A stretch of DNA of 12,387 bases from a virus. Its lineage: Duplodnaviria > Heunggongvirae > Uroviricota > Caudoviricetes. Below, piece by piece: positions 1 to 12,387 of the stretch. Under the pieces are notes generated by a model, which saw only the letters and a program-made list of their open reading frames with translations, made no database searches and was not told where the DNA came from. The stretch lies in the IMG/VR virus record IMGVR_UViG_3300015182_000009, one strand, 5' to 3'. How positions within the stretch are numbered: the stretch's first letter is position 1; the number at the start of each line of letters is the position of its first letter. The translations under genes and the position numbers were made by a program.

Positions 1-55
1 GATACGGCGACCACCGAGATCTACACTCTTTCCCTACACGACGCTCTTCCGATCT
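1..55. other. Illumina TruSeq universal (P5) adapter sequence; sequencing/assembly artefact, not genomic
   Basis: Positions 1-55 read GATACGGCGACCACCGAGATCTACACTCTTTCCCTACACGACGCTCTTCCGATCT, which is the TruSeq universal adapter minus its first three bases (AAT). Genomic sequence starts at 56. Confidence 0.9.
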
Positions 56-84
56 ATGAAAATGCGTCTTAGGAAGGTTAAATA

Positions 85-475
85 ATGCACGAAAAGAACA
101 TCGCCCTGCTTTGTGATGAAGCCGACCGACTTTTGCAACTGAACATTAATCTGCTCCGGCAAATGGTTGAGGAGCCAGATGTGTTATCTGACAGTAAGAA
201 CGAAAACAGACTGCTTTTTGATAAACAGAAAGCACTGAAAAGAATTGAGGAGCTGGAGGGCGAACAAATCAAAACCGCCCGCAGGGAGATGGTGCTGGCT
301 GTTGTCGGCACGATGAAAGCAGGCAAATCAACCACCATCAACGCCATTGTGGGGCAGGAAATTCTGCCTAACCGTAACCGCCCCATGACCTCTGTACCGA
401 CGCTCATCCGCCACGTTCCCGGAAAAACTGAGCCGGTTCTCCATCTGGAACATATTCAGCCTGTCCGCAATTTAT
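85..475 (+). pseudogene. Dynamin-like GTPase (CrfC/YjdA-like), N-terminal ~130 codons, truncated by the IS66 insertion
   Basis: ATG at 85 preceded by AGGAAGG. Translation contains a P-loop GTMKAGKST followed by TINAIVGQEILPNRNRPMTSVPTLIRH, as I recall for E. coli CrfC/YjdA. The track ORF 85..519 continues into the IS terminal repeat from 476, so its last 14 codons are IS-derived. Confidence 0.6.
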
Positions 476-501
476 GTAAGCGTCAACGGAGCACCGTATT
501 G
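476..501. repeat. IS66 terminal inverted repeat (IRR in element orientation)
   Basis: GTAAGCGTCAACGGAGCACCGTATTG matches about 19 of 24 positions with the reverse complement of the other end. Confidence 0.6.
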
Positions 502-505
502 ACGC

Positions 506-2119
506 TTATTTATTGGTGAGTACTACGTTCCATGGCAGGAGTTCATCAACTCGGTTGGAAGGCCATTCCGGCAGTACGCTCAGGATATGGCGCAGATACG
601 CTTCCGGATCGATACCGTTCAGACGGCAGGTGCCGATCAGCCCGTACAACAGTGCTCCACGCTCGCCGCCGTGATCGCTGCCAAAGAACATAAAGTTTTT
701 CTTTCCGAGACAGACTGCACGAAGCGCTCTTTCCGCAGCATTATTATCCGCCTCCGCCAGACCGTCATCACTGTAATAACAGAGGGCATCCCACTGATTC
801 AGTACATAGCTGAACGCTTCGCCCAGTCTGGATTTTTTCGACAGCGTACCATTCTTCTCCACCATCCATTCATGCAGCGACGTCAGTAACACTTTGCTTC
901 GCTGCTGCCTGACGGCAAGACGCTCTGACTCCGGTAATCCCCGTATTTCATCCTCGATGGCGTACAGTTCACTGATTCGCTTCAGTGCTTCTTCTGCCGT
1001 CGCACTTTTGCTGCTGATGTATACATCGTGGATTTTTCGCCGGGCATGGGCCCAGCACGCAACTTCTGTCAGTGCACCACCTTCACGTTCTGCACTGAAC
1101 AACCTGTCGTAACCTGTGAACGCATCCGCCTGCAGGATACCCCGGAAGGGGCGGAGGTGTTGCTCCGGGTGTTTCCCCTGCCGGTTCGGCGAGTACGCGA
1201 ACCAGACCGCTGGAGGAGATGACGAACCCACATTGCGATCATCCCGGACATACGTCCAGATACGCCCTGTTTTCGCCTTTTTCTGACCCGGTGCCAGTAC
1301 CTTTACCGGTGTGTCATCAGTGTGAATCTTGCGGGTGTTCATTACATAACGGTACAGGGCATCATTCACCGGTGTCATTAACTGGCAGCACGCGTCAACC
1401 CAGTTGGAGAGTAAGGCCCGGCTCAGTTCGACACCCTGGCGGGCAAAGATTTCACTCTGACGATACAGTGGCAGATGTTCGCAGTATTTTCCCGTTAACA
1501 CGCGGGCAAGTAATCCGGGGCCCGCGATACCACGCTCTATCGGGCGGGACGGCGCCGGTGCTTCAACAATACAGTCACATTTTGTACAGGCTTTTTTTAC
1601 CCGTTCTGTGCGGATCACTTTCAGGGCACTGCTCACCAGTTCCAGCTGTTCAGCGCTGACTTCCCCCAGATAATCCAGCTTACCGCCACACTCCGGGCAA
1701 CAGCTTTCTTCTGGCTCCAGGCGGTGTATTTCACGGGGAAGGTGTGCCGGTAACGGACGACGATGGCGCGACTGTCGCAACTGGCGGGGAACCTGAGGAT
1801 CGTCTTCCCGCCCACTGTAACGATCGCTGTCCTGTTCACGTTGTTTCAGCAGAGCCTCAGCCAGTTCAACTTCACGACGCAGTTTTTCAGAACGGGTACC
1901 GAACAGCATCCGGCGCAGTTTTTCTATCTGAGCCCGCAGATGTTCTATTTCCCGTTCATCTTCTTCGATCTTTTCTTCGGCACGTGTCAGTGCAGAGCGC
2001 AGGAAGGCTTCCGTCTCTTCAACCAGACTCAGTTGCTGGTCTTTCTGACGGAGGGCTTCAGCCTGCTCAGAGAGCAACCTTTCCAGCTCTGCGATGCGAA
2101 TGAGGTATTTCTGACTCAT
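506..2119 (-). CDS. tnpC: IS66-family transposase TnpC (orf3)
   Basis: 537-aa ORF with a coiled/leucine-rich N-terminus and Cys motifs CPECGGK...CTKCDC, recognised as the large IS66 transposase. It lies 30 nt downstream of orf2. Confidence 0.88.
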   Translation of the reverse strand: MSQKYLIRIAELERLLSEQAEALRQKDQQLSLVEETEAFLRSALTRAEEKIEEDEREIEHLRAQIEKLRRMLFGTRSEKLRREVELAEALLKQREQDSDRYSGREDDPQVPRQLRQSRHRRPLPAHLPREIHRLEPEESCCPECGGKLDYLGEVSAEQLELVSSALKVIRTERVKKACTKCDCIVEAPAPSRPIERGIAGPGLLARVLTGKYCEHLPLYRQSEIFARQGVELSRALLSNWVDACCQLMTPVNDALYRYVMNTRKIHTDDTPVKVLAPGQKKAKTGRIWTYVRDDRNVGSSSPPAVWFAYSPNRQGKHPEQHLRPFRGILQADAFTGYDRLFSAEREGGALTEVACWAHARRKIHDVYISSKSATAEEALKRISELYAIEDEIRGLPESERLAVRQQRSKVLLTSLHEWMVEKNGTLSKKSRLGEAFSYVLNQWDALCYYSDDGLAEADNNAAERALRAVCLGKKNFMFFGSDHGGERGALLYGLIGTCRLNGIDPEAYLRHILSVLPEWPSNRVDELLPWNVVLTNK

Positions 2120-2149
2120 GACCGTTTTTATAATGCGGTCAGGAGTTTT

Positions 2150-2500
2150 TTACAACATTGTCAGTGAGTTACGGCTGGATGTTTTTGGCTGACGCCAGTC
2201 CAGCTTATCGAGGAGCATTGCCAGTTGCGAGCGGGTAATGGATACCTTGCCGTCACGTACCGCAGGCCAGATAAACTGGCCTTCCTCCAGGCGTTTGGTG
2301 AACAGGCACAGACCATCAGCATCAGCCCAAAGAATTTTGACGGTGTCACCCCGTCGGCCACGGAAGATAAACAGGTGACCGGAGAAGGGATTATCATTCA
2401 GCACATGTTGTACCTGTTCTCCCAGTCCGTTGAAGGATTTACGCATATCGGTAACGCCGGCAACGAGCCAGATACGGGTACCTGATGGGAGTGAGATCAT
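2150..2500 (-). CDS. tnpB: IS66-family accessory protein TnpB (orf2)
   Basis: 116-aa ORF (MISLPSGTRIWLVAGVTDMRKSFNGL...) typical of IS66 orf2. Its start overlaps the orf1 stop by 4 nt (2497-2500), consistent with translational coupling. Confidence 0.85.
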   Translation of the reverse strand: MISLPSGTRIWLVAGVTDMRKSFNGLGEQVQHVLNDNPFSGHLFIFRGRRGDTVKILWADADGLCLFTKRLEEGQFIWPAVRDGKVSITRSQLAMLLDKLDWRQPKTSSRNSLTML

Positions 2501-2922
2501 CTTCCCCTCCCGGTCAGTTCACGGATCAACACTGTGAGCAGCTCTGGCGATGGATTTTCCAGCGTCATGTTACCGTGACGGAATTCCACCTTGCAGGAAC
2601 TGGCACTGACTCTGGTCTGAGTGGAAGTGGATAAAGACGGCGCAATGGCCGCCACAGGTTCTTTCTGCTCATCCGGCGTTATTTCTACAGGTAATAATTC
2701 AACGCCAGTGTCAGAAGAGGTCGTTACCGGAAGACGCCGCGAAACACGCCCTTCGTTCTGCCAGAGCCTGAGCCATTTGAAAATAACATTATCATTGACG
2801 CCATTTTCACGTGCAATCTGTGCAACACAAGCTCCAGGTTGTGATGCCAGTTCCACCATACGAAGTTTGAATTCATTCGAATAGTTTTTACGAGGTTCTT
2901 TTCGCCAGTCCTGTAATTCCAT
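2497..2922 (-). CDS. tnpA: IS66-family accessory protein TnpA (orf1), helix-turn-helix
   Basis: 141-aa ORF; the segment ELASQPGACVAQIARENGVNDNVIFKWLR looks like an HTH. It is the first gene inward from the element's left repeat. Confidence 0.8.
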   Translation of the reverse strand: MELQDWRKEPRKNYSNEFKLRMVELASQPGACVAQIARENGVNDNVIFKWLRLWQNEGRVSRRLPVTTSSDTGVELLPVEITPDEQKEPVAAIAPSLSTSTQTRVSASSCKVEFRHGNMTLENPSPELLTVLIRELTGRGR

Positions 2923-2935
2923 ACTTAGATGTCCG

Positions 2936-2965
2936 TCTATATCAGATGGGCGTCTAAGTTACCAA
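2936..2965 (-). promoter_or_regulatory. Possible sigma70-like promoter for the IS66 orf1-3 operon
   Basis: On the minus strand, TTGGTA, an 18-nt spacer, then TATAGA, located between the left repeat and the orf1 start. Sequence resemblance only. Confidence 0.2.
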
Positions 2966-2981
2966 TTCTCGTCTGATGGCT

Positions 2982-3007
2982 ACATACGGCGGTCAGTTTA
3001 CGCTTAC
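2982..3007. repeat. IS66 terminal inverted repeat (IRL in element orientation)
   Basis: ...CGGCGGTCAGTTTACGCTTAC; its reverse complement GTAAGCGTAAACTGACCGCCG pairs with 476-501. Confidence 0.6.
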
Positions 3008-3009
3008 GG

Positions 3010-3204
3010 GTCAGGGCCATTGGAGATGTGAATGGTGGCGGTGGATTTGTTTATTCTCCCGTGTATCACATCAGCATTCAGAATCAAGGGAGCAATGGCG
3101 AGATAGATGCGCGCTCAGCCAGGGGACTGGTGGATCTGATCGACAGCAGGGTTGTGTCAATTATGCAGTCATCGCGTCGGGATGGAGGATTGTACAGTGC
3201 CTGA
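3010..3204 (+). pseudogene. H: Tail tape-measure protein (lambda H-like), C-terminal 64 codons only; 5' part removed at the IS66 junction
   Basis: Frame 1 is open from the IS boundary: VRAIGDVNGGGGFVYSPVYHISIQNQGSNGEIDARSARGLVDLIDSRVVSIMQSSRRDGGLYSA*. The stop at 3202-3204 sits 5 nt after the M start, as at the lambda H/M junction. There is no start codon or upstream sequence. Confidence 0.55.
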
Positions 3205-3538
3205 GCCTGAAGTTTTTAACTGGATCCCCCGTGAGGGGATGGAGACGACACGAAAGCCATCAGTTATTACGGTAAAGTTTGGTGACGGATATGAACAGCG
3301 ACGGGCTGGTGGTCTGAATGCGGATCTGAAAACGTTTAAACCGGTATTTCGTGTCACAGATGAATATTCCCGTGCCGCGCTGGACAGTTTTTTATCCCGT
3401 CATGCCGGGATTCGTGCTTTTTTGTGGCGTCCGCCAAAACACAACAGGACTGTCCGGGTTGTCTGCAGGGAGTGGAGCATTTCGGATAATGCCATGTATA
3501 CCGATTTTAACTGTACCTTTGAAGAGGTCACTCACTGA
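3197..3538 (+). CDS. M: Minor tail protein M (lambda gpM-like)
   Basis: Translation ...FNWIPREGMETTRKPSVITVKFGDGYEQRRAGGLNADLKTF... aligns with lambda gpM (FRWKVKPGMDV...VRFGDGYSQRAPAGLNANLKTY). I chose the GTG at 3197 because GGAGGA sits 7 nt upstream and it gives 113 aa against lambda's 109. In-frame ATGs at 3182 and 3152 (the track start) are alternatives. The stop overlaps the L start (TGATG). Confidence 0.8.
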   Translation: MPEPEVFNWIPREGMETTRKPSVITVKFGDGYEQRRAGGLNADLKTFKPVFRVTDEYSRAALDSFLSRHAGIRAFLWRPPKHNRTVRVVCREWSISDNAMYTDFNCTFEEVTH

Positions 3539-4236
3539 TGCAGGATATACAGCAGGAAACACTCAATGAGTGCACTAAAACGGAGCAATCCGCGCTGGTC
3601 GTGCTCTGGGAAATTGATCTGACAGAGGTCGGCGGAGATCGTTATTTCTTCTGTAATGAGCAGAACGAAAAAGGTGAACCAGTCACCTGGCAGGGGCGGC
3701 AGTATCAGGCTTATCCCATTCAGGGAAGCGGATTTGAGATGAACGGCAAAGGAGCCAGTGCAAGGCCAACGCTTAAAGTCTCTAATCTGTACGGCATGGT
3801 CACCGGGATGGCGGAAGATATGCAGAGTCTGGTCGGCGGAACGGTGGTCCGGCGTAAGGTTTACGCCCGTTTTCTGGATGCGGTGAACTTCGTCAACGGA
3901 AACAGTTACGCCGATCCGGAGCAGGAGGTGATCAGCCGCTGGCGCATTGAGCAGTGCAGCGAACTGAGCGCGGTGAGTGCCTCCTTTGTACTGTCCACGC
4001 CGACGGAAACGGATGGCGCTGTTTTTCCGGGACGTATCATGCTGGCCAACACCTGCACCTGGACCTATCGCGGTGACGAGTGCGGTTATAGCGGTCCGGC
4101 TGTCGCGGATGAATATGACCAGCCAACGTCCGATATCACGAAGGATAAATGCAGCAAATGCCTGAGCGGTTGTAAGTTCCGCAATAACGTCGGCAACTTT
4201 GGCGGCTTCCTTTCCATTAACAAACTTTCGCAGTAA
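3538..4236 (+). CDS. L: Minor tail protein L (lambda gpL-like)
   Basis: 232 aa, the same length as lambda gpL, with a Cys-rich C-terminus (CSKCLSGCKF). It sits immediately after M with an overlapping start. Confidence 0.9.
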   Translation: MQDIQQETLNECTKTEQSALVVLWEIDLTEVGGDRYFFCNEQNEKGEPVTWQGRQYQAYPIQGSGFEMNGKGASARPTLKVSNLYGMVTGMAEDMQSLVGGTVVRRKVYARFLDAVNFVNGNSYADPEQEVISRWRIEQCSELSAVSASFVLSTPTETDGAVFPGRIMLANTCTWTYRGDECGYSGPAVADEYDQPTSDITKDKCSKCLSGCKFRNNVGNFGGFLSINKLSQ

Positions 4237-4241
4237 ATCCC

Positions 4242-4985
4242 ATGACACAGACAGAATCAGCGATTCTGGCGCACGCCCGGCGATGTGCGCCAGCGGAGTC
4301 GTGCGGCTTCGTGGTAAGCACGCCGGAGGGGGAAAGATATTTTCCCTGCGTGAATATCTCCGGTGAGCCGGAGGCGTATTTCCGTATGTCGCCGGAAGAC
4401 TGGCTGCAGGCAGAAATGCAGGGTGAGATTGTGGCGCTGGTCCACAGCCACCCCGGTGGTCTGCCCTGGCTGAGTGAGGCCGACCGGCGGCTGCAGGTGC
4501 AGAGTGATTTGCCGTGGTGGCTGGTCTGCCGGGGGGCGATTCACAAGTTCCGCTGTGTGCCGCATCTTACCGGGCGGCGCTTTGAGCACGGGGTGACGGA
4601 CTGTTACACGCTGCTCCGGGATGCTTACCATCTGGCGGGAATTGAGATGCCTGATTTTCATCGTGAGGATGACTGGTGGCGTAACGGCCAGAATCTCTAT
4701 CTGGATAATCTGGAGGCGACGGGGCTGTATCAGGTGCCGTTGTCAGCGGCACAGCCGGGCGATGTGCTGCTGTGCTGTTTTGGTTCATCGGTGCCGAATC
4801 ACGCCGCAATTTACTGCGGCGACGGCGAGCTGCTGCACCATATTCCTGAACAACTGAGCAAACGAGAGAGGTACACCGACAAATGGCAGCGACGCACACA
4901 CTCCCTCTGGCGTCACCGGGCATGGCACGTATCTGCCTTTACGGGGATTTGCAACGATTTGGCCGCCGCATCGACCTTCGTGTGA
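4242..4985 (+). CDS. K: Tail tip assembly protein K (lambda gpK-like), MPN/JAMM plus NlpC/P60-like domains
   Basis: JAMM-type motif HSHPGGLPWLSEADR and a C-terminal Cys/His region (DCYTLL...HAAIY). The long ORF starts 5 nt after the L stop. The classical 199-aa lambda K corresponds to the internal ATG at 4386 (MSPEDWLQ...). The 3' end overlaps gene I by 103 nt. Confidence 0.85.
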   Translation: MTQTESAILAHARRCAPAESCGFVVSTPEGERYFPCVNISGEPEAYFRMSPEDWLQAEMQGEIVALVHSHPGGLPWLSEADRRLQVQSDLPWWLVCRGAIHKFRCVPHLTGRRFEHGVTDCYTLLRDAYHLAGIEMPDFHREDDWWRNGQNLYLDNLEATGLYQVPLSAAQPGDVLLCCFGSSVPNHAAIYCGDGELLHHIPEQLSKRERYTDKWQRRTHSLWRHRAWHVSAFTGICNDLAAASTFV

Positions 4986-5530
4986 AAACGGGGGCCGAAG
5001 CCATCCGGGCGCTGGCCATGCAGATCCCGGCGTTTCGTCAGAAACTGAGCGATGGCTGGTATCAGGTGCGCATTGCCGGGCGTGATGCAGGCGAAAACGA
5101 ATTATCAGCCCGTCTTAATGAGCCGCTGAAAAATGGTGCCGTGATCCACATCGTTCCGCGTCTTGCGGGAGCAAAAAGTGGCGGTGTGTTTCAGGCGGTG
5201 CTGGGTGCGGCGCTGATTGCAGTGGCGTGGTGGAACCCTGTGGGCTGGCTGGGAGCTGCGGCTGTATCGGGCATGTATGCTGCGGGGGCCAGTATGATCC
5301 TTGGCGGTGTGGCGCAGATGCTGGCACCGAAAGCCAGAACTCCCCGTACACAGACAACGGATAACGGTAAGCAGAACACCTATTTCTCCTCACTGGATAA
5401 CATGGTTGCCCAGGGCAATGTTCTGCCCGTTCTGTACGGTGAAATGCGCGTGGGGTCGCGGGTGGCTTCTCAGGAGATCAGCACGGCAGACGAAGGGGAC
5501 GGTGGTCAGGTTGTGGTGATTGGTCGCTGA
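4883..5530 (+). CDS. I: Tail tip assembly protein I (lambda gpI-like)
   Basis: Begins MAATHTLPLASPGMARICLYGDLQRFGRRIDLRVKTGAEAIRALA and ends ...QEISTADEGDGGQVVVIGR, as I recall for lambda gpI. 215 aa, with the start overlapping K in a different frame. Confidence 0.9.
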   Translation: MAATHTLPLASPGMARICLYGDLQRFGRRIDLRVKTGAEAIRALAMQIPAFRQKLSDGWYQVRIAGRDAGENELSARLNEPLKNGAVIHIVPRLAGAKSGGVFQAVLGAALIAVAWWNPVGWLGAAAVSGMYAAGASMILGGVAQMLAPKARTPRTQTTDNGKQNTYFSSLDNMVAQGNVLPVLYGEMRVGSRVASQEISTADEGDGGQVVVIGR

Positions 5531-5548
5531 TGCAAAACGTTTTATGTG

Positions 5549-5575
5549 AAACCGCCTCAGGGCGGTTTTGTCGTT
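5549..5575 (+). terminator. Stem-loop plus U-run between I and J (possible attenuator or RNA processing site)
   Basis: AAACCGCC-TCAG-GGCGGTTT then TGTCGTTT. The J ribosome-binding site GAGGA follows at 5586-5590. Confidence 0.35.
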
Positions 5576-5590
5576 TCTGGAGCGTGAGGA

Positions 5591-8500
5591 ATGGGTAAAG
5601 GCAGCAGTAAGGGGCATACCCCGCGCGAAGCGAAGGACAACCTGAAATCATCCCAGATGCTGAGCGTGATAGACGCCATCAGTGAAGGGCCGGTTGAAGG
5701 TCCGGTGGATGGATTAAAAAGCGTGCTGCTGAACAGTACGCCGGTGCTGGACACTGAGGGGAATACCAACATCTCCGGTGTCACGGTGGTGTTCCGTGCC
5801 GGTGAGCAGGAGCAGACACCGCCGGAGGGGTTTGAATCCTCCGGCTCCGAGACGGTGCTGGGTACGGAAGTGAAATATGACACGCCGATCACCCGCACCA
5901 TCACGTCTGCAAACATCGACCGTCTGCGCTTTACCTTCGGTGTGCAGGCACTGGTGGAAACCACCTCAAAGGGGGACCGGAATCCGTCGGAAGTTCGCCT
6001 GCTGGTTCAGATACAGCGTAATGGTGGCTGGGTGACGGAAAAAGACATCACCATTAAGGGCAAAACCACCTCGCAGTATCTGGCCTCGGTGGTGGTGGAT
6101 AACCTGCCGCCGCGCCCGTTTAATATCCGGATGCGCAGGATGACGCCGGACAGCACCACAGACCAGCTGCAGAACAAAACGCTCTGGTCGTCATACACCG
6201 AAATCATCGATGTGAAACAGTGCTACCCGAACACGGCACTGGTCGGCGTACAGGTGGATTCGGAGCAGTTCGGCAGCCAGCAGGTGAGCCGTAATTATCA
6301 TCTGCGCGGGCGCATTCTGCAGGTGCCGTCGAACTATAACCCGCAGACGCGGCAATACAGCGGTATCTGGGACGGAACGTTTAAACCGGCATACAGCAAC
6401 AACATGGCCTGGTGTCTGTGGGATATGCTGACCCATCCGCGCTACGGCATGGGGAAACGTCTTGGTGCGGCGGATGTGGATAAATGGGCGCTGTATGTCA
6501 TCGGCCAGTACTGCGACCAGTCGGTGCCGGACGGCTTTGGCGGCACGGAGCCGCGCATCACCTGTAATGCGTACCTGACCACACAGCGCAAGGCGTGGGA
6601 TGTGCTCAGTGATTTCTGCTCGGCGATGCGCTGTATGCCGGTATGGAACGGGCAGACGCTGACGTTCGTGCAGGACCGACCATCAGATAAGGTGTGGACC
6701 TATAACCGCAGTAATGTGGTGATGCCGGATGATGGCGCGCCGTTCCGCTACAGCTTCAGCGCCCTGAAAGACCGCCATAATGCCGTTGAGGTGAACTGGA
6801 TTGACCCGGACAACGGCTGGGAGACGGCGACAGAGCTTGTTGAAGATACGCAGGCCATTGCCCGTTACGGTCGTAACGTCACGAAGATGGATGCCTTTGG
6901 CTGTACCAGCCGGGGGCAGGCGCACCGCGCCGGGCTGTGGCTGATTAAAACGGAACTGCTGGAAACGCAGACCGTGGACTTCAGCGTGGGTGCGGAAGGG
7001 CTTCGCCATGTACCGGGGGATGTCATTGAAATCTGCGATGATGACTATGCGGGTATCAGCACCGGCGGGCGCGTGCTGGCGGTGAACAGCCAGACCCGGA
7101 CGCTGACGCTCGACCGTGAAATCACGCTGCCATCCTCCGGTACCACGCTGATAAGCCTGGTTGACGGTCAGGGTAATCCGGTCAGCGTGGAGGTCCAGTC
7201 CGTCACCGACGGCGTGAAGGTGAAAGTGAGCCGGGTTCCTGATGGTGTTGCAGAATACAGCGTGTGGGGGCTGAAGTTGCCGACGCTGCGCCAGCGCCTG
7301 TTCCGCTGTGTGAGTATCCGTGAGAACGATGACGGCACGTATGCCATCACCGCCGTGCAGCATGTACCGGAAAAAGAAGCCATCGTGGATAACGGGGCGC
7401 ACTTTGACGGCGACCAGAGCGGCACGGTGAATGGTGTCACGCCGCCAGCGGTGCAGCACCTGACTGCCGAAGTCACCGCAGACAGCGGGGAATATCAGGT
7501 GCTGGCGCGCTGGGACACGCCGAAGGTGGTGAAGGGCGTGAGCTTCCTGCTCCGTCTGACCGTAACAGCGGATGACGGCAGTGAGTGGCTGGTCAGCACG
7601 GCCCGGACGACGGAAACCACTTACCGCTTCACACAACTGGCGCTGGGGAACTACAGGCTGACAGTCCGGGCAGTAAATGCGTGGGGGCAGCAGGGCGATC
7701 CGGCGTCGGTATCGTTCCGGATTGCCGCACCGGCAGCGCCGTCGCGGATTGAGCTGACGCCGGGCTATTTTCAGATAACCGCCACGCCGCATCTTGCGGT
7801 TTATGATCCGACGGTACAGTTTGAGTTCTGGTTCTCGGAAAAGCGGATTACCGATATCAGGCAGGTTGAAACCACAGCACGCTATCTTGGCACGGCGCTG
7901 TACTGGATAGCCGCCAGTATCAATATCAAACCGGGCCATGATTATTACTTTTATATCCGCAGTGTGAACACCGTTGGCAAATCGGCATTCGTGGAGGCTG
8001 TTGGTCAGCCGAGTGATGATGCATCCGGTTATCTGGATTTTTTCAAAGGCGAGATAGGGAAAACCCATCTGGCTCAGGAGCTGTGGACGCAGATTGATAA
8101 CGGTCAGCTTGCGCCTGACCTGGCTGAAATCAGGACGTCCATTACGGATGTCAGCAATGAAATCACGCAGACCGTCAATAAGAAACTGGAAGACCAGAGT
8201 GCGGCAATTCAGCAGATACAGAAGGTTCAGGTTGATACAAATAATAACCTGAACAGCATGTGGGCTGTGAAGCTGCAGCAGATGCAGGACGGACGCCTTT
8301 ATATCGCGGGTATTGGTGCCGGTATTGAGAACACCCCTGACGGCATGCAGAGTCAGGTGCTGCTGGCGGCAGACAGGATTGCGATGATTAATCCTGCGAA
8401 TGGCAACACAAAGCCGATGTTTGTTGGGCAGGGCGATCAGATATTCATGAACGAAGTGTTCCTGAAACGCCTGACGGCTCCCACCATTACCAGCGGCGGT

Positions 8501-9070
8501 AATCCTCCGGTATTTTCCCTGACACCGGACGGGCGGCTGACGGCGAAAAATGCCGATATCAGCGGTAACGTGAATGCGAACGCCGGGACGCTCAACAACG
8601 TCACGATTAACGAGAACTGTCGGGTTCTGGGAAAACTGTCCGCCAACCAGATTGAAGGCGATCTCGTTAAAACAGTGGGCAAAGCTTTCCCCCGGGACTC
8701 CCGTGCACCGGAACGGTGGCCATCAGGGACCATCACCGTCAGGGTTTATGACGATCAGCCGTTTGACCGGCAGATTGTTATTCCGGCGGTGGCATTCAGC
8801 GGCGCTAAACATGAGCGGGAGAATAACGATATTTATTCGTCATGCCGCCTGATAGTACGGAAAAACGGTGCTGAAATTTATAACCGTACCGCGCTGGATA
8901 ATACGCTGATTTACAGTGGTGTTATTGATATGCCTGCCGGTCACGGTCACATGACACTGGAGTTTTCGGTGTCAGCATGGCTGGTAAATAACTGGTATCC
9001 CACAGCCAGTATCAGCGATTTGCTGGTTGTGGTGATGAAGAAAGCCACTGCAGGCATCACGATTAGCTGA
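5591..9070 (+). CDS. J: Central tail fibre / host specificity protein J (lambda gpJ-like)
   Basis: 1159-aa ORF starting [20 protein letters not shown]..., as recalled for lambda gpJ (1132 aa). The long antisense ORF 6683..8068 is a by-product of this gene's composition. Confidence 0.92.
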
Positions 9071-9088
9071 ATTTTATAACCCAGATAC

Positions 9089-9113
9089 GGGCGCCAGAAA
9101 TGGCGCCTTTTTT
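9089..9113 (+). terminator. Rho-independent terminator downstream of J
   Basis: GGCGCC-AGAAAT-GGCGCC hairpin (9090-9107) followed by TTTTTT (9108-9113). Confidence 0.7.
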
Positions 9114-9137
9114 ATTGCAGAAAAGCGAGAGGTAATT

Positions 9138-9737
9138 ATGCGTAAAGTTTATGCAGCTATTTTGTCCGCAGCCATCTGTCTGGCCGTATCAGGTACGCCT
9201 GCATGGGCGTCTGAACACCAGTCCACACTGAGCGCAGGGTATCTTCATGCCCGTACGAACGTCCCCGGCAGCGATAATCTGAACGGGATTAACGTGAAAT
9301 ACCGTTATGAATTTACGGACACGCTGGGGCTGGTGACGTCATTCAGTTATGCCAATGCCAAAGATGAGCAAAAAACGCATTACAGCGATACCCGCTGGCA
9401 TGAAGATTCCGTGCGTAACCGCTGGTTCAGCGTGATGGCGGGGCCGTCTGTGCGCGTGAATGAATGGTTCAGCGCGTATGCGATGGCGGGTATGGCTTAC
9501 AGCCGTGTGTCGACTTTCTCCGGGGATTATCTCCGCGTAACTGACAACAAGGGGAAAACGCACGACGTGCTGACCGGAAGTGATGACGGTCGCCACAGCA
9601 ACACGTCTCTGGCGTGGGGGGCTGGCGTGCAGTTTAACCCGACCGAATCCGTGGCCGTTGATGTCGCTTATGAAGGTTCCGGCAGTGGCGACTGGCGCAC
9701 TGACGGTTTCATCGTGGGTGTCGGTTATAAATTCTGA
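9138..9737 (+). CDS. lom: Outer-membrane protein Lom (Ail/Lom/OmpX family beta-barrel), a lysogenic-conversion moron
   Basis: 199 aa with a signal peptide (MRKVYAAILSAAICLAVSGTPAWA) and a C-terminus ...YEGSGSGDWRTDGFIVGVGYKF matching the lambda Lom ending. The ribosome-binding site GAGAGG lies upstream. Its position between J and stf is as in lambda. Confidence 0.9.
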   Translation: MRKVYAAILSAAICLAVSGTPAWASEHQSTLSAGYLHARTNVPGSDNLNGINVKYRYEFTDTLGLVTSFSYANAKDEQKTHYSDTRWHEDSVRNRWFSVMAGPSVRVNEWFSAYAMAGMAYSRVSTFSGDYLRVTDNKGKTHDVLTGSDDGRHSNTSLAWGAGVQFNPTESVAVDVAYEGSGSGDWRTDGFIVGVGYKF

Positions 9738-9763
9738 TTAGCCAGGTAACACAGTGTTATGAC

Positions 9764-9790
9764 AGCCCGCCGGTTCAGGCGGGCTTTTTT
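9764..9790 (+). terminator. Rho-independent terminator downstream of lom
   Basis: AGCCCGCC-GGTTCA-GGCGGGCT hairpin followed by TTTTTT. Confidence 0.75.
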
Positions 9791-9801
9791 GTGGGGTGAA
9801 T

Positions 9802-12387
9802 ATGGCAGTAAAGATTTCAGGTGTACTGAAAGACGGCACAGGAAAACCGGTACAGAACTGCACAATCCAGCTGAAAGCAAAACGTAACAGTACCACGGTG
9901 GTGGTGAACACGCTGGCCTCAGAAAATCCGGATGAAGCCGGGCGTTACAGCATGGACGTTGAGTACGGTCAGTACAGCGTTATTCTGTTGGTGGAAGGAT
10001 TCCCGCCGTCACATGCCGGGACCATCACCGTGTATGAAGATTCCCGACCCGGTACGCTGAATGATTTTCTCGGTGCCATGACGGAGGATGATGCCCGTCC
10101 TGAGGCACTGCGCCGTTTTGAACTGATGGTGGAAGAGGTGGCGCGTAACGCGTCCGCGGTGGCACAGAACACGGCAGCCGCGAAGAAGTCAGCCAGCGAT
10201 GCCAGCACATCAGCCCGTGAGGCGGCAACCCGTGCGACTGATGCTGCAGGCTCAGCACGTGCAGCCAGCACGTCAGCCGGACAGGCCGCGTCGTCGGCTC
10301 AGTCAGCGTCTTCCAGCGCAGGAACGGCATCAACAAAGGCCACTGAAGCATCAAAAAGTGCTGCCGCCGCAGAGTCTTCAAAAAGCGCGGCAGCCACCAG
10401 TGCCGGTGCAGCGAAAACGTCGGAAATGAATGCCGCAGCATCACAAAAATCTGCGGCCACATCTGCATCCACCGCGACCACGAAAGCGTCAGAAGCTGCC
10501 ACCTCAGCCCGGGATGCGTCGGCTTCAAAAGTGGCGGCAAAATCATCAGAAACGAGCGCTGCCTCGAGCGCCGGCAGTGCAGCTTCCTCGGCAACGGCAG
10601 CAGGAAATTCCGCGAAGGCCGCAAAAACGTCTGAGACGAATGCGGATAACAGCGCACAGGCGGCAGCAGACTCACAAACTGCATCGGCAAACTCCGCGAC
10701 AGCAGCCAAAAAATCAGAAACCAACGCGAAAAATAGTGAGGCAGCAGCAAAGGTCAGCGAAACCAACGCTAAAGCGTCAGAGAACAAGGCGAAAGAATAT
10801 CTCGACAAGGTCGGGGGACTCGTCAGCCCGATGACGCAATACGATTGGCCCGTTGTTACTGGTAATGAGTCTTTTTACATAAAGATCGCGAAACTTTCCG
10901 ATCCCGGAAGCGGCAATTGCCATGTAACGCTAATGGTTACTAATGCCGGTAACTACGGCTCCCCTTACGGAAACATTGACTTTATCGAGATCTCGGCGCG
11001 CGGTCTGCCTTCTTTGCTTAGTGCGGATAATGTTTCTCGTCATCTGAGTATACGCCGCTTAGGGTCAACCGGGCTGACCGATAACAACCAGATGCGTTAC
11101 GGCCTGGTTAAAGGTGACGGCTTTATTGAGGTTTGGGCCTTCCAGCGCGCATTTATCAACGGCGCAAAGGTTGCGGTGCTGGCGCAGACGGCACGCCCGG
11201 AATTATACATTCCAGACGGATTTGTTAAGCAAACCGCCGCGCCTTCTGGATATGTTGAAAGCCCCGTTGTAAGGATTTACGACCAGTTAAACAAGCCGAC
11301 TAAAGCAGATTTGGGTCTTTCTAATGCTATGCTTACAGGCGCTTTCGGTCTTGGCGGTAGCGGGATATCAACAAACGGCAAGATGAGCGATGTAGAGATC
11401 TTAAAAGCTCTGCGTGACAAAGGTGGTCATTTCTGGCGCGGTGATAAGCCGACCGGAAGCACGGCGACCATTTATAGCCACGGTTCTGGTATATTCTCGC
11501 GGTGCGGCGATACGTGGTCAGCGATCAATATCGACTACTCAACCGCGAAGATTAAGATCTATGCCGGCAACGATGCCCGGCTTAACAACGGGACTTTTAG
11601 CATCAATGAGCTATACGGCTCGGCAAACAAGCCGTCGAAATCGGATGTTGGACTTGGCAACGTAACTAACGATGCGCAGGTGAAAAAATCCGGCGATGTT
11701 ATGTCTGGTGATCTTGATATATTGAAAGAAACGCCATCTATCAGGCTAAAATCAGCAAAAGGAACCGCTCATCTGTGGTTCATGAACAACGACGGAAGCG
11801 AGCGCGGCGTTGTTTGGTCGCCTGAAAACAACGAATCACTTGGCGAAATCCACATCAGGGCGAAAAACACAAAAGGTGAATCAAGTGGTGATTTTATTGT
11901 TCGCCACGACGGGAGGGTTGAGGCCCGCAATCTAAAAATAACTTACAAAATCAGCGCAGCCACCGCAGAATTTGCAAACACAAGCACCAGTTCCGATAAC
12001 ACTACGGTAAGCATCAAAGGATCTCAGCATACGCCTTTGGTTTTAACGAGCAACAACACAATTAAAAACTTGTCCATTGGGTTTAAGGTTGATGATGTTG
12101 ATCAAAAATACCTGGGTATAGCTGGTGACGGTGATTTGTATTTTGGTAGTTATTCTGACCACACAAAAAACAGCAAAGTAATCACACAAGCAAAACTCGA
12201 TAGCGGGGTGACGGTAGGCGGTAAAACAACCTTTTCTGACTTTGCCACATTTAACGCAGGTATGGCGGGATCTATCGAGCCGGAAACCATTGACAACAAG
12301 ACTATTGATTTAAACGACTTGATCATTGCTAATACAGTGGCTGGATCTGTTAAATACTATCAATGCAAAACTGTTGCAGGTGGTGCA
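9802..12387 (+). CDS. stf: Side tail fibre protein (lambda Stf-like N-terminus, divergent distal region); 3' end lies beyond the window
   Basis: ATG at 9802 opens a frame-1 reading frame with no stop to the window end (862 codons). It is missing from the ORF track, presumably because that track lists only ORFs with a stop inside the window. The N-terminus MAVKISGVLKDGTGKPVQNCTIQLKA...SMDVEYGQYSVIL...FPPSHAGTITVYEDS matches lambda Stf, followed by an Ala/Ser/Thr/Lys-rich shaft and then an unrelated AT-richer distal region. Confidence 0.85.
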   Translation, partial: MAVKISGVLKDGTGKPVQNCTIQLKAKRNSTTVVVNTLASENPDEAGRYSMDVEYGQYSVILLVEGFPPSHAGTITVYEDSRPGTLNDFLGAMTEDDARPEALRRFELMVEEVARNASAVAQNTAAAKKSASDASTSAREAATRATDAAGSARAASTSAGQAASSAQSASSSAGTASTKATEASKSAAAAESSKSAAATSAGAAKTSEMNAAASQKSAATSASTATTKASEAATSARDASASKVAAKSSETSAASSAGSAASSATAAGNSAKAAKTSETNADNSAQAAADSQTASANSATAAKKSETNAKNSEAAAKVSETNAKASENKAKEYLDKVGGLVSPMTQYDWPVVTGNESFYIKIAKLSDPGSGNCHVTLMVTNAGNYGSPYGNIDFIEISARGLPSLLSADNVSRHLSIRRLGSTGLTDNNQMRYGLVKGDGFIEVWAFQRAFINGAKVAVLAQTARPELYIPDGFVKQTAAPSGYVESPVVRIYDQLNKPTKADLGLSNAMLTGAFGLGGSGISTNGKMSDVEILKALRDKGGHFWRGDKPTGSTATIYSHGSGIFSRCGDTWSAINIDYSTAKIKIYAGNDARLNNGTFSINELYGSANKPSKSDVGLGNVTNDAQVKKSGDVMSGDLDILKETPSIRLKSAKGTAHLWFMNNDGSERGVVWSPENNESLGEIHIRAKNTKGESSGDFIVRHDGRVEARNLKITYKISAATAEFANTSTSSDNTTVSIKGSQHTPLVLTSNNTIKNLSIGFKVDDVDQKYLGIAGDGDLYFGSYSDHTKNSKVITQAKLDSGVTVGGKTTFSDFATFNAGMAGSIEPETIDNKTIDLNDLIIANTVAGSVKYYQCKTVAGGA

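What the first reader, a model, noticed from the sequence alone, without database searches (positions are those of the whole stretch)
56..475. Truncated dynamin-like GTPase with an upstream ORF remnant whose stop overlaps its start
The translated N-terminus carries a P-loop and downstream motif matching what I recall of E. coli CrfC/YjdA. Positions 56-85 encode the last codons of an upstream frame (…MKMRLRKVK*) whose TAA overlaps the GTPase ATG (TAATG), suggesting a translationally coupled pair. Bacterial dynamin-like proteins often occur as adjacent pairs, for example the ETEC leo locus. The IS cuts away most of the GTPase domain and all of the stalk, so the protein is probably non-functional.
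Basis: partly seen in the sequence, partly recalled or inferred. Interest (0 to 1): 0.45.

Follow-up and report, generated by a model that had tools for sequence, protein, structure and literature searches.

The report
IS-disrupted dynamin-like GTPase gene stump
This is the first 130 codons of a common, already annotated E. coli island gene for a dynamin-like GTPase, cut off by an insertion sequence. The supposed "upstream gene remnant" is the gene's own ribosome-binding leader sitting next to leftover Illumina adapter, so the finding is ordinary.

Summary
The GTPase call holds. Window 85-475 encodes residues 1-130 of a 798-aa "dynamin family protein" present in about 45% of complete E. coli genomes. 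It is an island-borne paralogue of RdcA/CrfC/YjdA: 33% identical overall and 74% identical across the retained P-loop and switch I.

An ISEc23 element (IS66 family, 476-3007) interrupts the gene after codon 130. The G3 and G4 motifs and the whole C-terminal half are therefore missing from this reading frame, which then runs 14 codons into the IS. The same junction occurs in a separate metagenome contig, so the insertion is real.

The "upstream ORF remnant / translationally coupled pair" idea fails.
- Bases 1-55 are the Illumina TruSeq universal adapter, a contig-end artefact.
- Bases 56-84 are annotated intergenic leader carrying the Shine-Dalgarno AGGAAGG.
- In intact loci that reading frame is only about 16 codons long.
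- It is absent from a 95%-identical allele.

The real coupled partners lie downstream: an RdcB/YjcZ-like gene and a patatin-like phospholipase gene, each with an ATGA overlap. Neither is in this window.

The IS flanks do not form a target-site duplication, and the far flank is a prophage tail module. The contig is either an IS-mediated rearrangement or a join made through a repeat during assembly.

Verdict: a known kind of gene, an ordinary pseudogene, low interest.

The parts
1..55 (.). Illumina TruSeq universal adapter (bases 4-58 of the 58-nt adapter). It is a contig-end artefact, not genomic DNA.
   Evidence: Exact string match. The adapter sequence is as printed in PMC3485326.
56..84 (+). 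Native 5' leader of the dynamin-family gene. It contains the Shine-Dalgarno AGGAAGG (71-77, 7 nt before the ATG) and the last 9 sense codons of a chance mini-ORF (stop TAA at 83-85) that totals about 16 codons in intact loci.
   Evidence: Annotated as intergenic in RefSeq records. The frame is closed by TAA 8 codons (L001, L004) or 12 codons (L002) upstream. The leader is entirely different in the 95% allele L006.
85..475 (+). 5' stump (130 codons plus 1 nt) of a 798-aa island-borne dynamin-family GTPase gene, a paralogue of RdcA/CrfC/YjdA.
   Evidence: 100% identical over 420 nt to 'dynamin family protein' genes, with the same start codon. Pfam Dynamin_N E 1.1e-11 and NCBIfam CrfC model E 1.4e-42. 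74% identical to K-12 RdcA over residues 63-130.
307..330 (+). G1 / P-loop GTMKAGKS (residues 75-82). K81 corresponds to RdcA K82. The G2 threonine T102 (nt 388-390) corresponds to RdcA T103.
   Evidence: Translation, alignment A1, and the RdcA motif assignments in PMC6510439.
476..519 (+). Read-through of the truncated frame into the IS. Codon 131 spans the junction (nt 475-477). Fourteen non-native residues (CKRQRSTVLTLIYW) are followed by a TGA stop.
476..3007 (-). ISEc23 (IS66 family), 2,532 bp, with imperfect terminal inverted repeats starting GTAAGCG. Genes are tnpC 506-2119, tnpB 2150-2500 and tnpA 2497-2922, all on the minus strand.
   Evidence: 100% identity to annotated ISEc23 copies. 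ORFs. Ends and the 8-bp duplication rule were defined from the simple insertion in GPEC673. IR comparison.
3008..3204 (+). Last 197 nt of a lambdoid prophage tape-measure gene, abutting the IS. The 8-bp flank GGGTCAGG does not match the left flank CAATTTAT, so this is not a simple insertion as assembled.

Best explanation
Window 56-475 is the native leader plus the first 130 codons of a horizontally acquired E. coli gene for a dynamin-like GTPase. The gene is a paralogue of RdcA/CrfC/YjdA. In intact strains it is the first gene of a three-gene operon (dynamin-like, RdcB/YjcZ-like, patatin-like phospholipase) on CP4-44-type islands.

An ISEc23 element (IS66 family) transposed into codon 131. 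Translation from the intact Shine-Dalgarno sequence and ATG would give a 144-aa stub. The stub keeps the P-loop (G1) and switch I (G2). It lacks G3, G4 and the whole C-terminal half, which in the K-12 paralogue RdcA is the effector-binding part. The gene is therefore a pseudogene.

The 'upstream ORF' is a chance mini-ORF inside the leader. It appeared open-ended only because the contig begins with untrimmed Illumina adapter.

Shown: the identity of the gene, its start, the breakpoint, the identity of the IS, the adapter, and the absence of an upstream gene. Inferred: loss of function, and expression of the stub.
For: Gene identity and frequency:
- 100% DNA identity of 56-475 to 'dynamin family protein' genes in complete E. 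coli genomes; 2,461 of 5,426 genomes hold at least 80% of the query.
- The annotated start coincides with window 85, and the downstream genes are RdcB-family and patatin-like with 4-nt overlaps.
- Family assignment of the three proteins comes from Pfam and NCBIfam.
- 33% identity to K-12 RdcA end to end, and 74% over the retained G1-G2 region.
- RdcB-like versus RdcB is 30% identical.

Motifs and domains:
- The G1 K82 and G2 T103 roles and the domain split of RdcA come from PMC6510439 and PMC13463826.
- G3 and G4 lie at residues 235-238 and 298-301, beyond the break.

The insertion:
- The IS is 100% identical to ISEc23.
- The breakpoint sits exactly at the IS terminus.
- The identical junction and identical 144-aa product occur in a separate ENA metagenome contig that continues 433 nt further upstream into normal genomic sequence.

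Adapter and leader:.
Against: - Nothing contradicts the gene or IS identification.
- The contig does not show where the 3' part of the gene is. The IS flanks differ (CAATTTAT versus GGGTCAGG) and the far flank is a prophage tail module. 'Cut away' could therefore mean a simple insertion misjoined by the assembler rather than a deletion.
- Neither IS junction is present in any of 5,426 complete genomes, nor in the genome or metagenome contig scans.
- Only two assemblies support the left junction, and both contain untrimmed adapter.
- Non-function of the stub is inferred, not tested.
Confidence: 0.9

Rival explanations
1. One reading: 56-85 is the 3' end of an upstream gene, translationally coupled (TAATG) to the GTPase. 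The two would form an adjacent pair of dynamin-like proteins as in the ETEC leoABC locus.
For: - The TAATG overlap is in the sequence.
- In one lineage the nearest upstream gene is a YeeP-like 'GTPase family protein' with a weak partial Dynamin_N hit (E 2.3e-8).
Against: - Bases 1-55 are adapter.
- The frame is at most about 16 codons long in intact loci.
- The region is annotated as intergenic.
- The upstream gene ends 218 nt away, or is cah ending 110 nt away.
- The mini-ORF is absent from the 95% allele.
- LeoA and LeoBC models are non-significant.
- The overlapping starts are with the downstream genes instead.
Confidence: 0.02
2. The truncated arrangement as assembled (dynamin 5' - ISEc23 - prophage tail genes) is a misjoin through a multi-copy IS in a short-read assembly. 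In the real chromosome the IS would be a simple insertion with the rest of the dynamin gene directly beyond it, and a second ISEc23 copy would sit in the prophage tape-measure gene.
For: - The flanks do not form the 8-bp duplication that ISEc23 makes in GPEC673.
- Neither junction is found in 5,426 complete genomes.
- In the closest complete genome (strain 4/2-1) the two flanks are 0.9 Mb apart in the same orientation. That geometry fits neither a deletion nor an inversion product (geometric inference).
- The contig carries untrimmed adapter.
- ISEc23 is present in up to 47 places per genome.
- Simple ISEc23 insertions in this gene exist in GPEC673 and GCU-H1.
Against: - Assemblers usually break at a 2.5-kb repeat rather than joining across it.
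- IS-associated truncation with loss of the rest of the island does occur in this gene, as in EC2001.
- Lambdoid tail modules occur in several prophages per genome (median 3 places), so the backbone geometry of the source strain is unknown.
- Either way the gene is disrupted at codon 131.
Confidence: 0.45
3. It is a different P-loop NTPase (Era/Der/YeeP-like small GTPase or AAA ATPase) rather than a dynamin-family protein.
For: Weak sub-threshold hits of the P-loop segment to MMR_HSR1, AIG1, AAA_22 and Der/Era models (E 1e-3 to 1e-2).
Against: - Only Dynamin_N exceeds its Pfam cutoff (45.4 against 27 bits).
- The full-length protein aligns end to end with the CrfC model (550.6 bits, residues 1-797 on model positions 1-736).
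- The best PDB relative is the Nostoc bacterial dynamin-like protein 2J68.
Confidence: 0.01

Closest known systems
RdcA (= CrfC = YjdA) of E. coli K-12, with its partner RdcB (= YjcZ)
   Same: - Same architecture: an N-terminal dynamin-like G domain plus a long C-terminal region.
- End-to-end alignment, with G1 and G2 residues conserved (K81/T102 against K82/T103).
- An overlapping downstream RdcB/YjcZ-family gene.
   Different: - Only 33% identical (RdcB-like 30%), and 550.6 bits against the 1146-bit equivalog cutoff. It is a paralogue, not RdcA itself.
- It lies on a mobile island rather than at the phn-proP core locus.
- Its operon has a third gene, a patatin-like phospholipase.
- No link to DgcE is known.
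- Here it is truncated to 130 residues.
[quoted passage not shown]
   Same: Same gene triad and the same type of genomic island. That paper reports about 30% identity to core RdcAB, up-regulation in Kapi1 lysogens, and proposes a phage-defence role. The intact form of the window's gene belongs to this set of island operons by annotation and gene order.
   Different: The window holds only the first 130 codons. The RdcB-like and phospholipase genes are absent. I did not compare sequences with MP1 directly.
LeoA / LeoBC (ETEC leo locus; 'Eleos' defence system) and Nostoc BDLP (PDB 2J68)
   Same: Dynamin-superfamily G domain. The P-loop-to-switch-I segment aligns with BDLP residues 67-117.
   Different: - PADLOC LeoA and LeoBC models score only E 0.0076 and 0.0094 for the fragment, and LeoBC 3.7e-5 (21 bits) for the full-length protein.
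- There is no tandem pair of dynamin-like genes.
- The partner genes are of a different kind.
IS66-family insertion pseudogenes (ISEc23)
   Same: - The element has the tnpA-tnpB-tnpC organisation, GTAAGCG termini and 100% identity to ISEc23.
- The breakpoint is exactly at the IS end.
- The same gene is hit independently in GPEC673, GCU-H1 and EC2001.
   Different: The two flanks in this contig are unrelated and there is no 8-bp duplication.

Membership tests
Dynamin superfamily (Pfam Dynamin_N, PF00350) | Score above the Pfam gathering threshold for Dynamin_N | tested here: met
   The fragment scores 45.4 bits against a cutoff of 27 (E 1.1e-11) but covers only profile positions 1-45 of 168. 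The intact homologue scores 66.9 bits over positions 1-167.
Dynamin superfamily (Pfam Dynamin_N, PF00350) | Complete G domain with G1 (GxxxxGKS/T), G2 (Thr), G3 (DxxG) and G4 (N/TKxD) | tested here: not met
   G1 (residues 75-82) and G2 (T102) are present. G3 (DTPG 235-238) and G4 (NKFD 298-301) of the intact protein lie beyond the breakpoint at residue 130. The window copy is a fragment of a member, not a functional member.
RdcA/CrfC equivalog (NCBIfam NF007368) | Whole-protein score at or above the curated equivalog cutoff (1146 bits) | tested here: not met
   The full-length island protein scores 550.6 bits and the fragment 145.9 bits. Identity to K-12 RdcA is 33%. It is a paralogue.
RdcA/RdcB-type two-gene module | Downstream overlapping YjcZ/RdcB-family gene (PF13990) | tested here: met
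   Met in intact loci: PF13990 E 2.8e-70, with a 4-nt overlap with the dynamin gene. Not present in this window, where the region after the IS is prophage.
RdcA/RdcB-type two-gene module | GTP-regulated activation of the diguanylate cyclase DgcE | not testable with these tools
   Known for K-12 RdcA only (PMC6510439, PMC13463826). There are no data for the island paralogue.
Leo / Eleos dynamin defence system (PADLOC LeoA, LeoBC) | Significant match to the LeoA or LeoBC models, and tandem dynamin-like genes | tested here: not met
   The fragment gives E 0.0076 and 0.0094. The full-length protein gives 21 bits against LeoBC. The neighbours are RdcB-like and patatin-like, not a second dynamin.
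Translationally coupled upstream gene | An upstream protein-coding ORF that ends at the GTPase start and is conserved across loci | tested here: not met
   The frame is at most about 16 codons, is unannotated, has variable upstream neighbours and is absent from the 95% allele. Window 1-55 is adapter.
IS66 family (ISEc23) | tnpA-tnpB-tnpC genes, inverted repeats starting GTAAGCG, and an 8-bp target-site duplication | tested here: inconclusive
   The genes and inverted repeats are present, and the element is 100% identical to ISEc23. An 8-bp duplication (GGAAATCT) is seen in GPEC673. In the window the flanks differ (CAATTTAT / GGGTCAGG), so this copy is not flanked by a duplication as assembled.

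The most novel reading that the evidence does not exclude
The stub itself is not novel. The most novel reading the evidence leaves open concerns the intact locus it derives from. The island-borne dynamin-like / RdcB-like / patatin-phospholipase operon could be a GTP-sensing switch that controls a membrane-degrading phospholipase, as an anti-phage or abortive-infection module built on the RdcA-RdcB-DgcE logic. Recurrent IS66-family inactivation (four independent events seen here) might then reflect a fitness cost. None of this can be tested on the 130-codon remnant in this window.
Probability: 0.15. Interest if true: 0.5.

Novelty: already known. Interest (0 to 1): 0.1.

Why it matters
It matters little biologically. 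It is one more IS-inactivated accessory gene in an E. coli island. RefSeq already annotates the intact gene, which is found in about 45% of complete genomes, and it has been discussed in the literature as a putative defence operon.

The practical value is as a caution.
- The contig starts with 55 nt of Illumina adapter, which created the illusion of an open upstream frame.
- The contig crosses a multi-copy IS between two unrelated loci, so gene-order conclusions from it are unsafe.

Tried and rejected
- I looked for either IS junction in 5,426 complete E. coli genomes and found none.
- I scanned genome contigs and metagenome contigs with a degenerate pattern covering both the window's right junction and the right junction expected for a simple insertion, and then with the left junction. 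All four scans returned zero matches.
- An exact-product look-up of the 99-aa ORF across the right junction found nothing on record.
- A look-up of the 58-aa tape-measure tail found only a contig that starts at that point, which is uninformative.
- I considered a conserved leader peptide or uORF and rejected it. The leader is replaced entirely in the 95% allele.
- I considered the Leo/Eleos family and rejected it on PADLOC scores.
- I considered another P-loop NTPase family and rejected it.
- I did not run structure prediction or the large protein searches. 100% DNA identity to annotated genes plus the HMM results already settle identity.

Full report
**What is in the sequence.**

The window opens with GATACGGCGACCACCGAGATCTACACTCTTTCCCTACACGACGCTCTTCCGATCT (1-55). 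This equals bases 4-58 of the 58-nt Illumina TruSeq universal adapter (string match; the adapter is printed in PMC3485326).

From 56 the sequence reads ATGAAAATGCGTCTTAGGAAGGTTAAATAATGCAC. The frame MKMRLRKVK* ends with TAA at 83-85, sharing one base with the ATG at 85-87. The ORF from 85 runs to 519 (144 aa).

**Identity of the gene.**

Bases 56-475 are 100% identical to a chromosomal gene annotated "dynamin family protein". Of 5,426 complete E. coli genomes, 2,461 hold at least 80% of the query. In ATCC 11775 and O157:H7 TR01 the annotated start is the same ATG, window position 85. The proteins are 798 aa and 794 aa respectively.

HMM results for the 130 native residues:
- Pfam Dynamin_N gives E 1.1e-11 (45.4 bits, cutoff 27), covering profile positions 1-45 of 168 only.
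- The NCBIfam CrfC model gives E 1.4e-42.

The full-length protein aligns end to end with the CrfC model. It scores 550.6 bits against an equivalog cutoff of 1146.

Against K-12 RdcA (= CrfC = YjdA, b4109) the full-length protein is 33% identical. The retained segment, residues 63-130, is 74% identical. The closest solved structure by sequence is the Nostoc bacterial dynamin-like protein 2J68.

The protein is a paralogue, not RdcA itself.

**What the fragment keeps and loses.**

G1 is GTMKAGKS, residues 75-82 (nt 307-330). K81 aligns with RdcA K82, and T102 aligns with the G2 threonine T103. Those assignments come from PMC6510439, and the alignment is A1.

G3 (DTPG, 235-238) and G4 (NKFD, 298-301) lie beyond residue 130, as does the whole C-terminal half. 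In RdcA the C-terminal domain binds and activates the effector, while the G domain regulates (PMC13463826 abstract).

The 144-aa product (130 native residues plus CKRQRSTVLTLIYW) is therefore very unlikely to bind or hydrolyse GTP or to signal. This is inference.

**The "upstream ORF remnant".**

In intact loci, bases corresponding to window 56-84 are annotated as intergenic.
- In ATCC 11775, and in the metagenome contig L004, a TAA closes the frame 8 codons upstream of window 56. The largest possible ORF is 16 codons (MTSSVVVMKMRLRKVK).
- In O157:H7 TR01 the frame closes 12 codons upstream.
- The upstream neighbour is a YeeP-like "GTPase family protein" ending 218 nt away in one lineage, and the autotransporter gene cah ending 110 nt away in another.
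- In a 95%-identical allele (O157:H7 ECP19-2498) homology begins only 4 nt before the ATG. The leader there is entirely different, with no MKMRLRKVK frame.
- AGGAAGG at 71-77 sits 7 nt before the ATG and is the obvious Shine-Dalgarno sequence (read directly from the sequence).
- TAATG occurs 15 times on the + strand of the window.

The overlap is thus a chance feature of an A/T-rich ribosome-binding region, and not a coupled gene pair.

Real coupling exists downstream in intact loci. The dynamin gene overlaps by 4 nt an RdcB/YjcZ-family gene (PF13990, E 2.8e-70; 30% identical to K-12 RdcB). That gene in turn overlaps by 4 nt a patatin-like phospholipase gene (PF01734, E 3.2e-24). These genes are not in the window.

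**The IS.**

Native sequence ends at 475 (…CCGCAATTTAT). The intact gene continues TAATCACACTGC.

From 476 the sequence is GTAAGCGTCAACGG…, and the element ends …CAGTTTACGCTTAC at 3007. It is 2,532 bp long, with imperfect inverted repeats. It carries tnpC (506-2119), tnpB (2150-2500) and tnpA (2497-2922) on the minus strand. It is 100% identical to annotated ISEc23 copies.

The IS ends and the 8-bp duplication rule were calibrated on strain GPEC673. There ISEc23 sits as a simple insertion in the same gene, at a different site, flanked by GGAAATCT on both sides.

**Is the junction real?**

An exact-product look-up of the 144-aa fusion protein found one other record, an ENA metagenome contig (ERZ27315463 k141_5504, 944 bp). 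It has the identical junction and extends 433 nt further upstream into the normal YeeP-like gene and leader. The breakpoint also lies exactly at the IS terminus. Together these points argue for a true transposition event.

**Is the gene "cut away"?**

The right flank of the IS (GGGTCAGG…) does not repeat the left flank (CAATTTAT). It is the last 197 nt of a lambdoid tape-measure gene. The tail genes M, L, K, I and J, then lom, and part of a tail-fibre gene follow it. This stretch is 100% identical to prophages in many strains.

No complete genome has either junction. Four scans of the genome and metagenome contig collections also found none.

In strain 4/2-1, which has both flanks at 100% identity, they lie 0.9 Mb apart in the same orientation. 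With two direct IS copies, a deletion would join tape-measure 5' to dynamin 3'. An inversion would join the two 5' parts. The window's join, dynamin 5' to tape-measure 3', fits neither of these. It fits only a duplication or excision junction, a different backbone arrangement, or a misjoin through the repeat (inference).

The untrimmed adapter also points to a poorly cleaned short-read assembly, so I regard a misjoin as about as likely as a real rearrangement.

Real IS-associated loss of the rest of this gene does exist in strain EC2001, and simple insertions exist in GPEC673 and GCU-H1. In every scenario the reading frame is broken at codon 131.

**Comparison with known systems.**

[quoted passage not shown] That paper reports about 30% identity to core RdcAB, up-regulation in lysogens, and a possible phage-defence role (PMC12922286).

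PADLOC v2 models do not recognise any of the three proteins as a known defence system. LeoA and LeoBC scores are insignificant, so the ETEC leo analogy is only superfamily-level.

**Verdict.**

The GTPase identification and the truncation are correct. The upstream-ORF and coupled-pair interpretation is wrong, and arose from adapter contamination plus a chance stop in the leader. The object is an ordinary IS-disrupted copy of an already annotated accessory gene, and its interest is low.

Noticed in passing
window 1-55: The contig begins with 55 nt of Illumina TruSeq universal adapter. The source assembly was made from untrimmed reads.
   Followed up: yes
window 468-475 and 3008-3015: The 8-bp flanks of ISEc23 differ (CAATTTAT versus GGGTCAGG). 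The element joins an island gene to a prophage tape-measure gene that lies 0.9 Mb away in the closest complete genome. This is either an IS-mediated rearrangement or a misjoin through the repeat during assembly.
   Followed up: partly
window 3008-12387: Lambdoid prophage tail module: tape-measure 3' end, then M, L, K (C40 peptidase), I, J (5591-9070), lom (9138-9737) and the N-terminal part of a tail-fibre gene. It is 100% identical to prophages in many E. coli. The contig ends inside the tail-fibre gene.
   Followed up: partly
L004 919-944 (ENA ERZ27315463 k141_5504): The independent metagenome contig carrying the same dynamin|ISEc23 junction also ends in adapter (AGATCGGAAGAGCACACGTCTGAACT). 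It diverges from the IS sequence at about window position 568.
   Followed up: no
L003 (GPEC673), L010 (GCU-H1), L011 (EC2001): Three further independent IS66-family events affect the first ~1 kb of the same dynamin-family gene. Two are simple ISEc23 insertions at other sites. One is a truncation in which the rest of the island is lost and core genes (yeeA, sbmC, dacD) follow.
   Followed up: partly
L001 8925-8975 (outside the window, upstream leader of the intact gene): Three closely spaced CGATCG-containing palindromic motifs (ATCGATCGTTA, ATCGATCGTTA, AACGATCGTTT) overlap a promoter-like site and a hairpin. They may form an operator. They are absent from the cah-linked version of the locus.
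   Followed up: no
L008 4276-6612 (strain MLI106K4): In some strains another IS66-family element (ISEc22) sits between the L and K tail genes of the same prophage module. IS66-type elements have hit this prophage repeatedly.
   Followed up: no
window 78-407, minus strand: A 109-aa ATG ORF lies antisense to the dynamin-family stump. It is not annotated in any matching RefSeq record and is presumably spurious.
   Followed up: no
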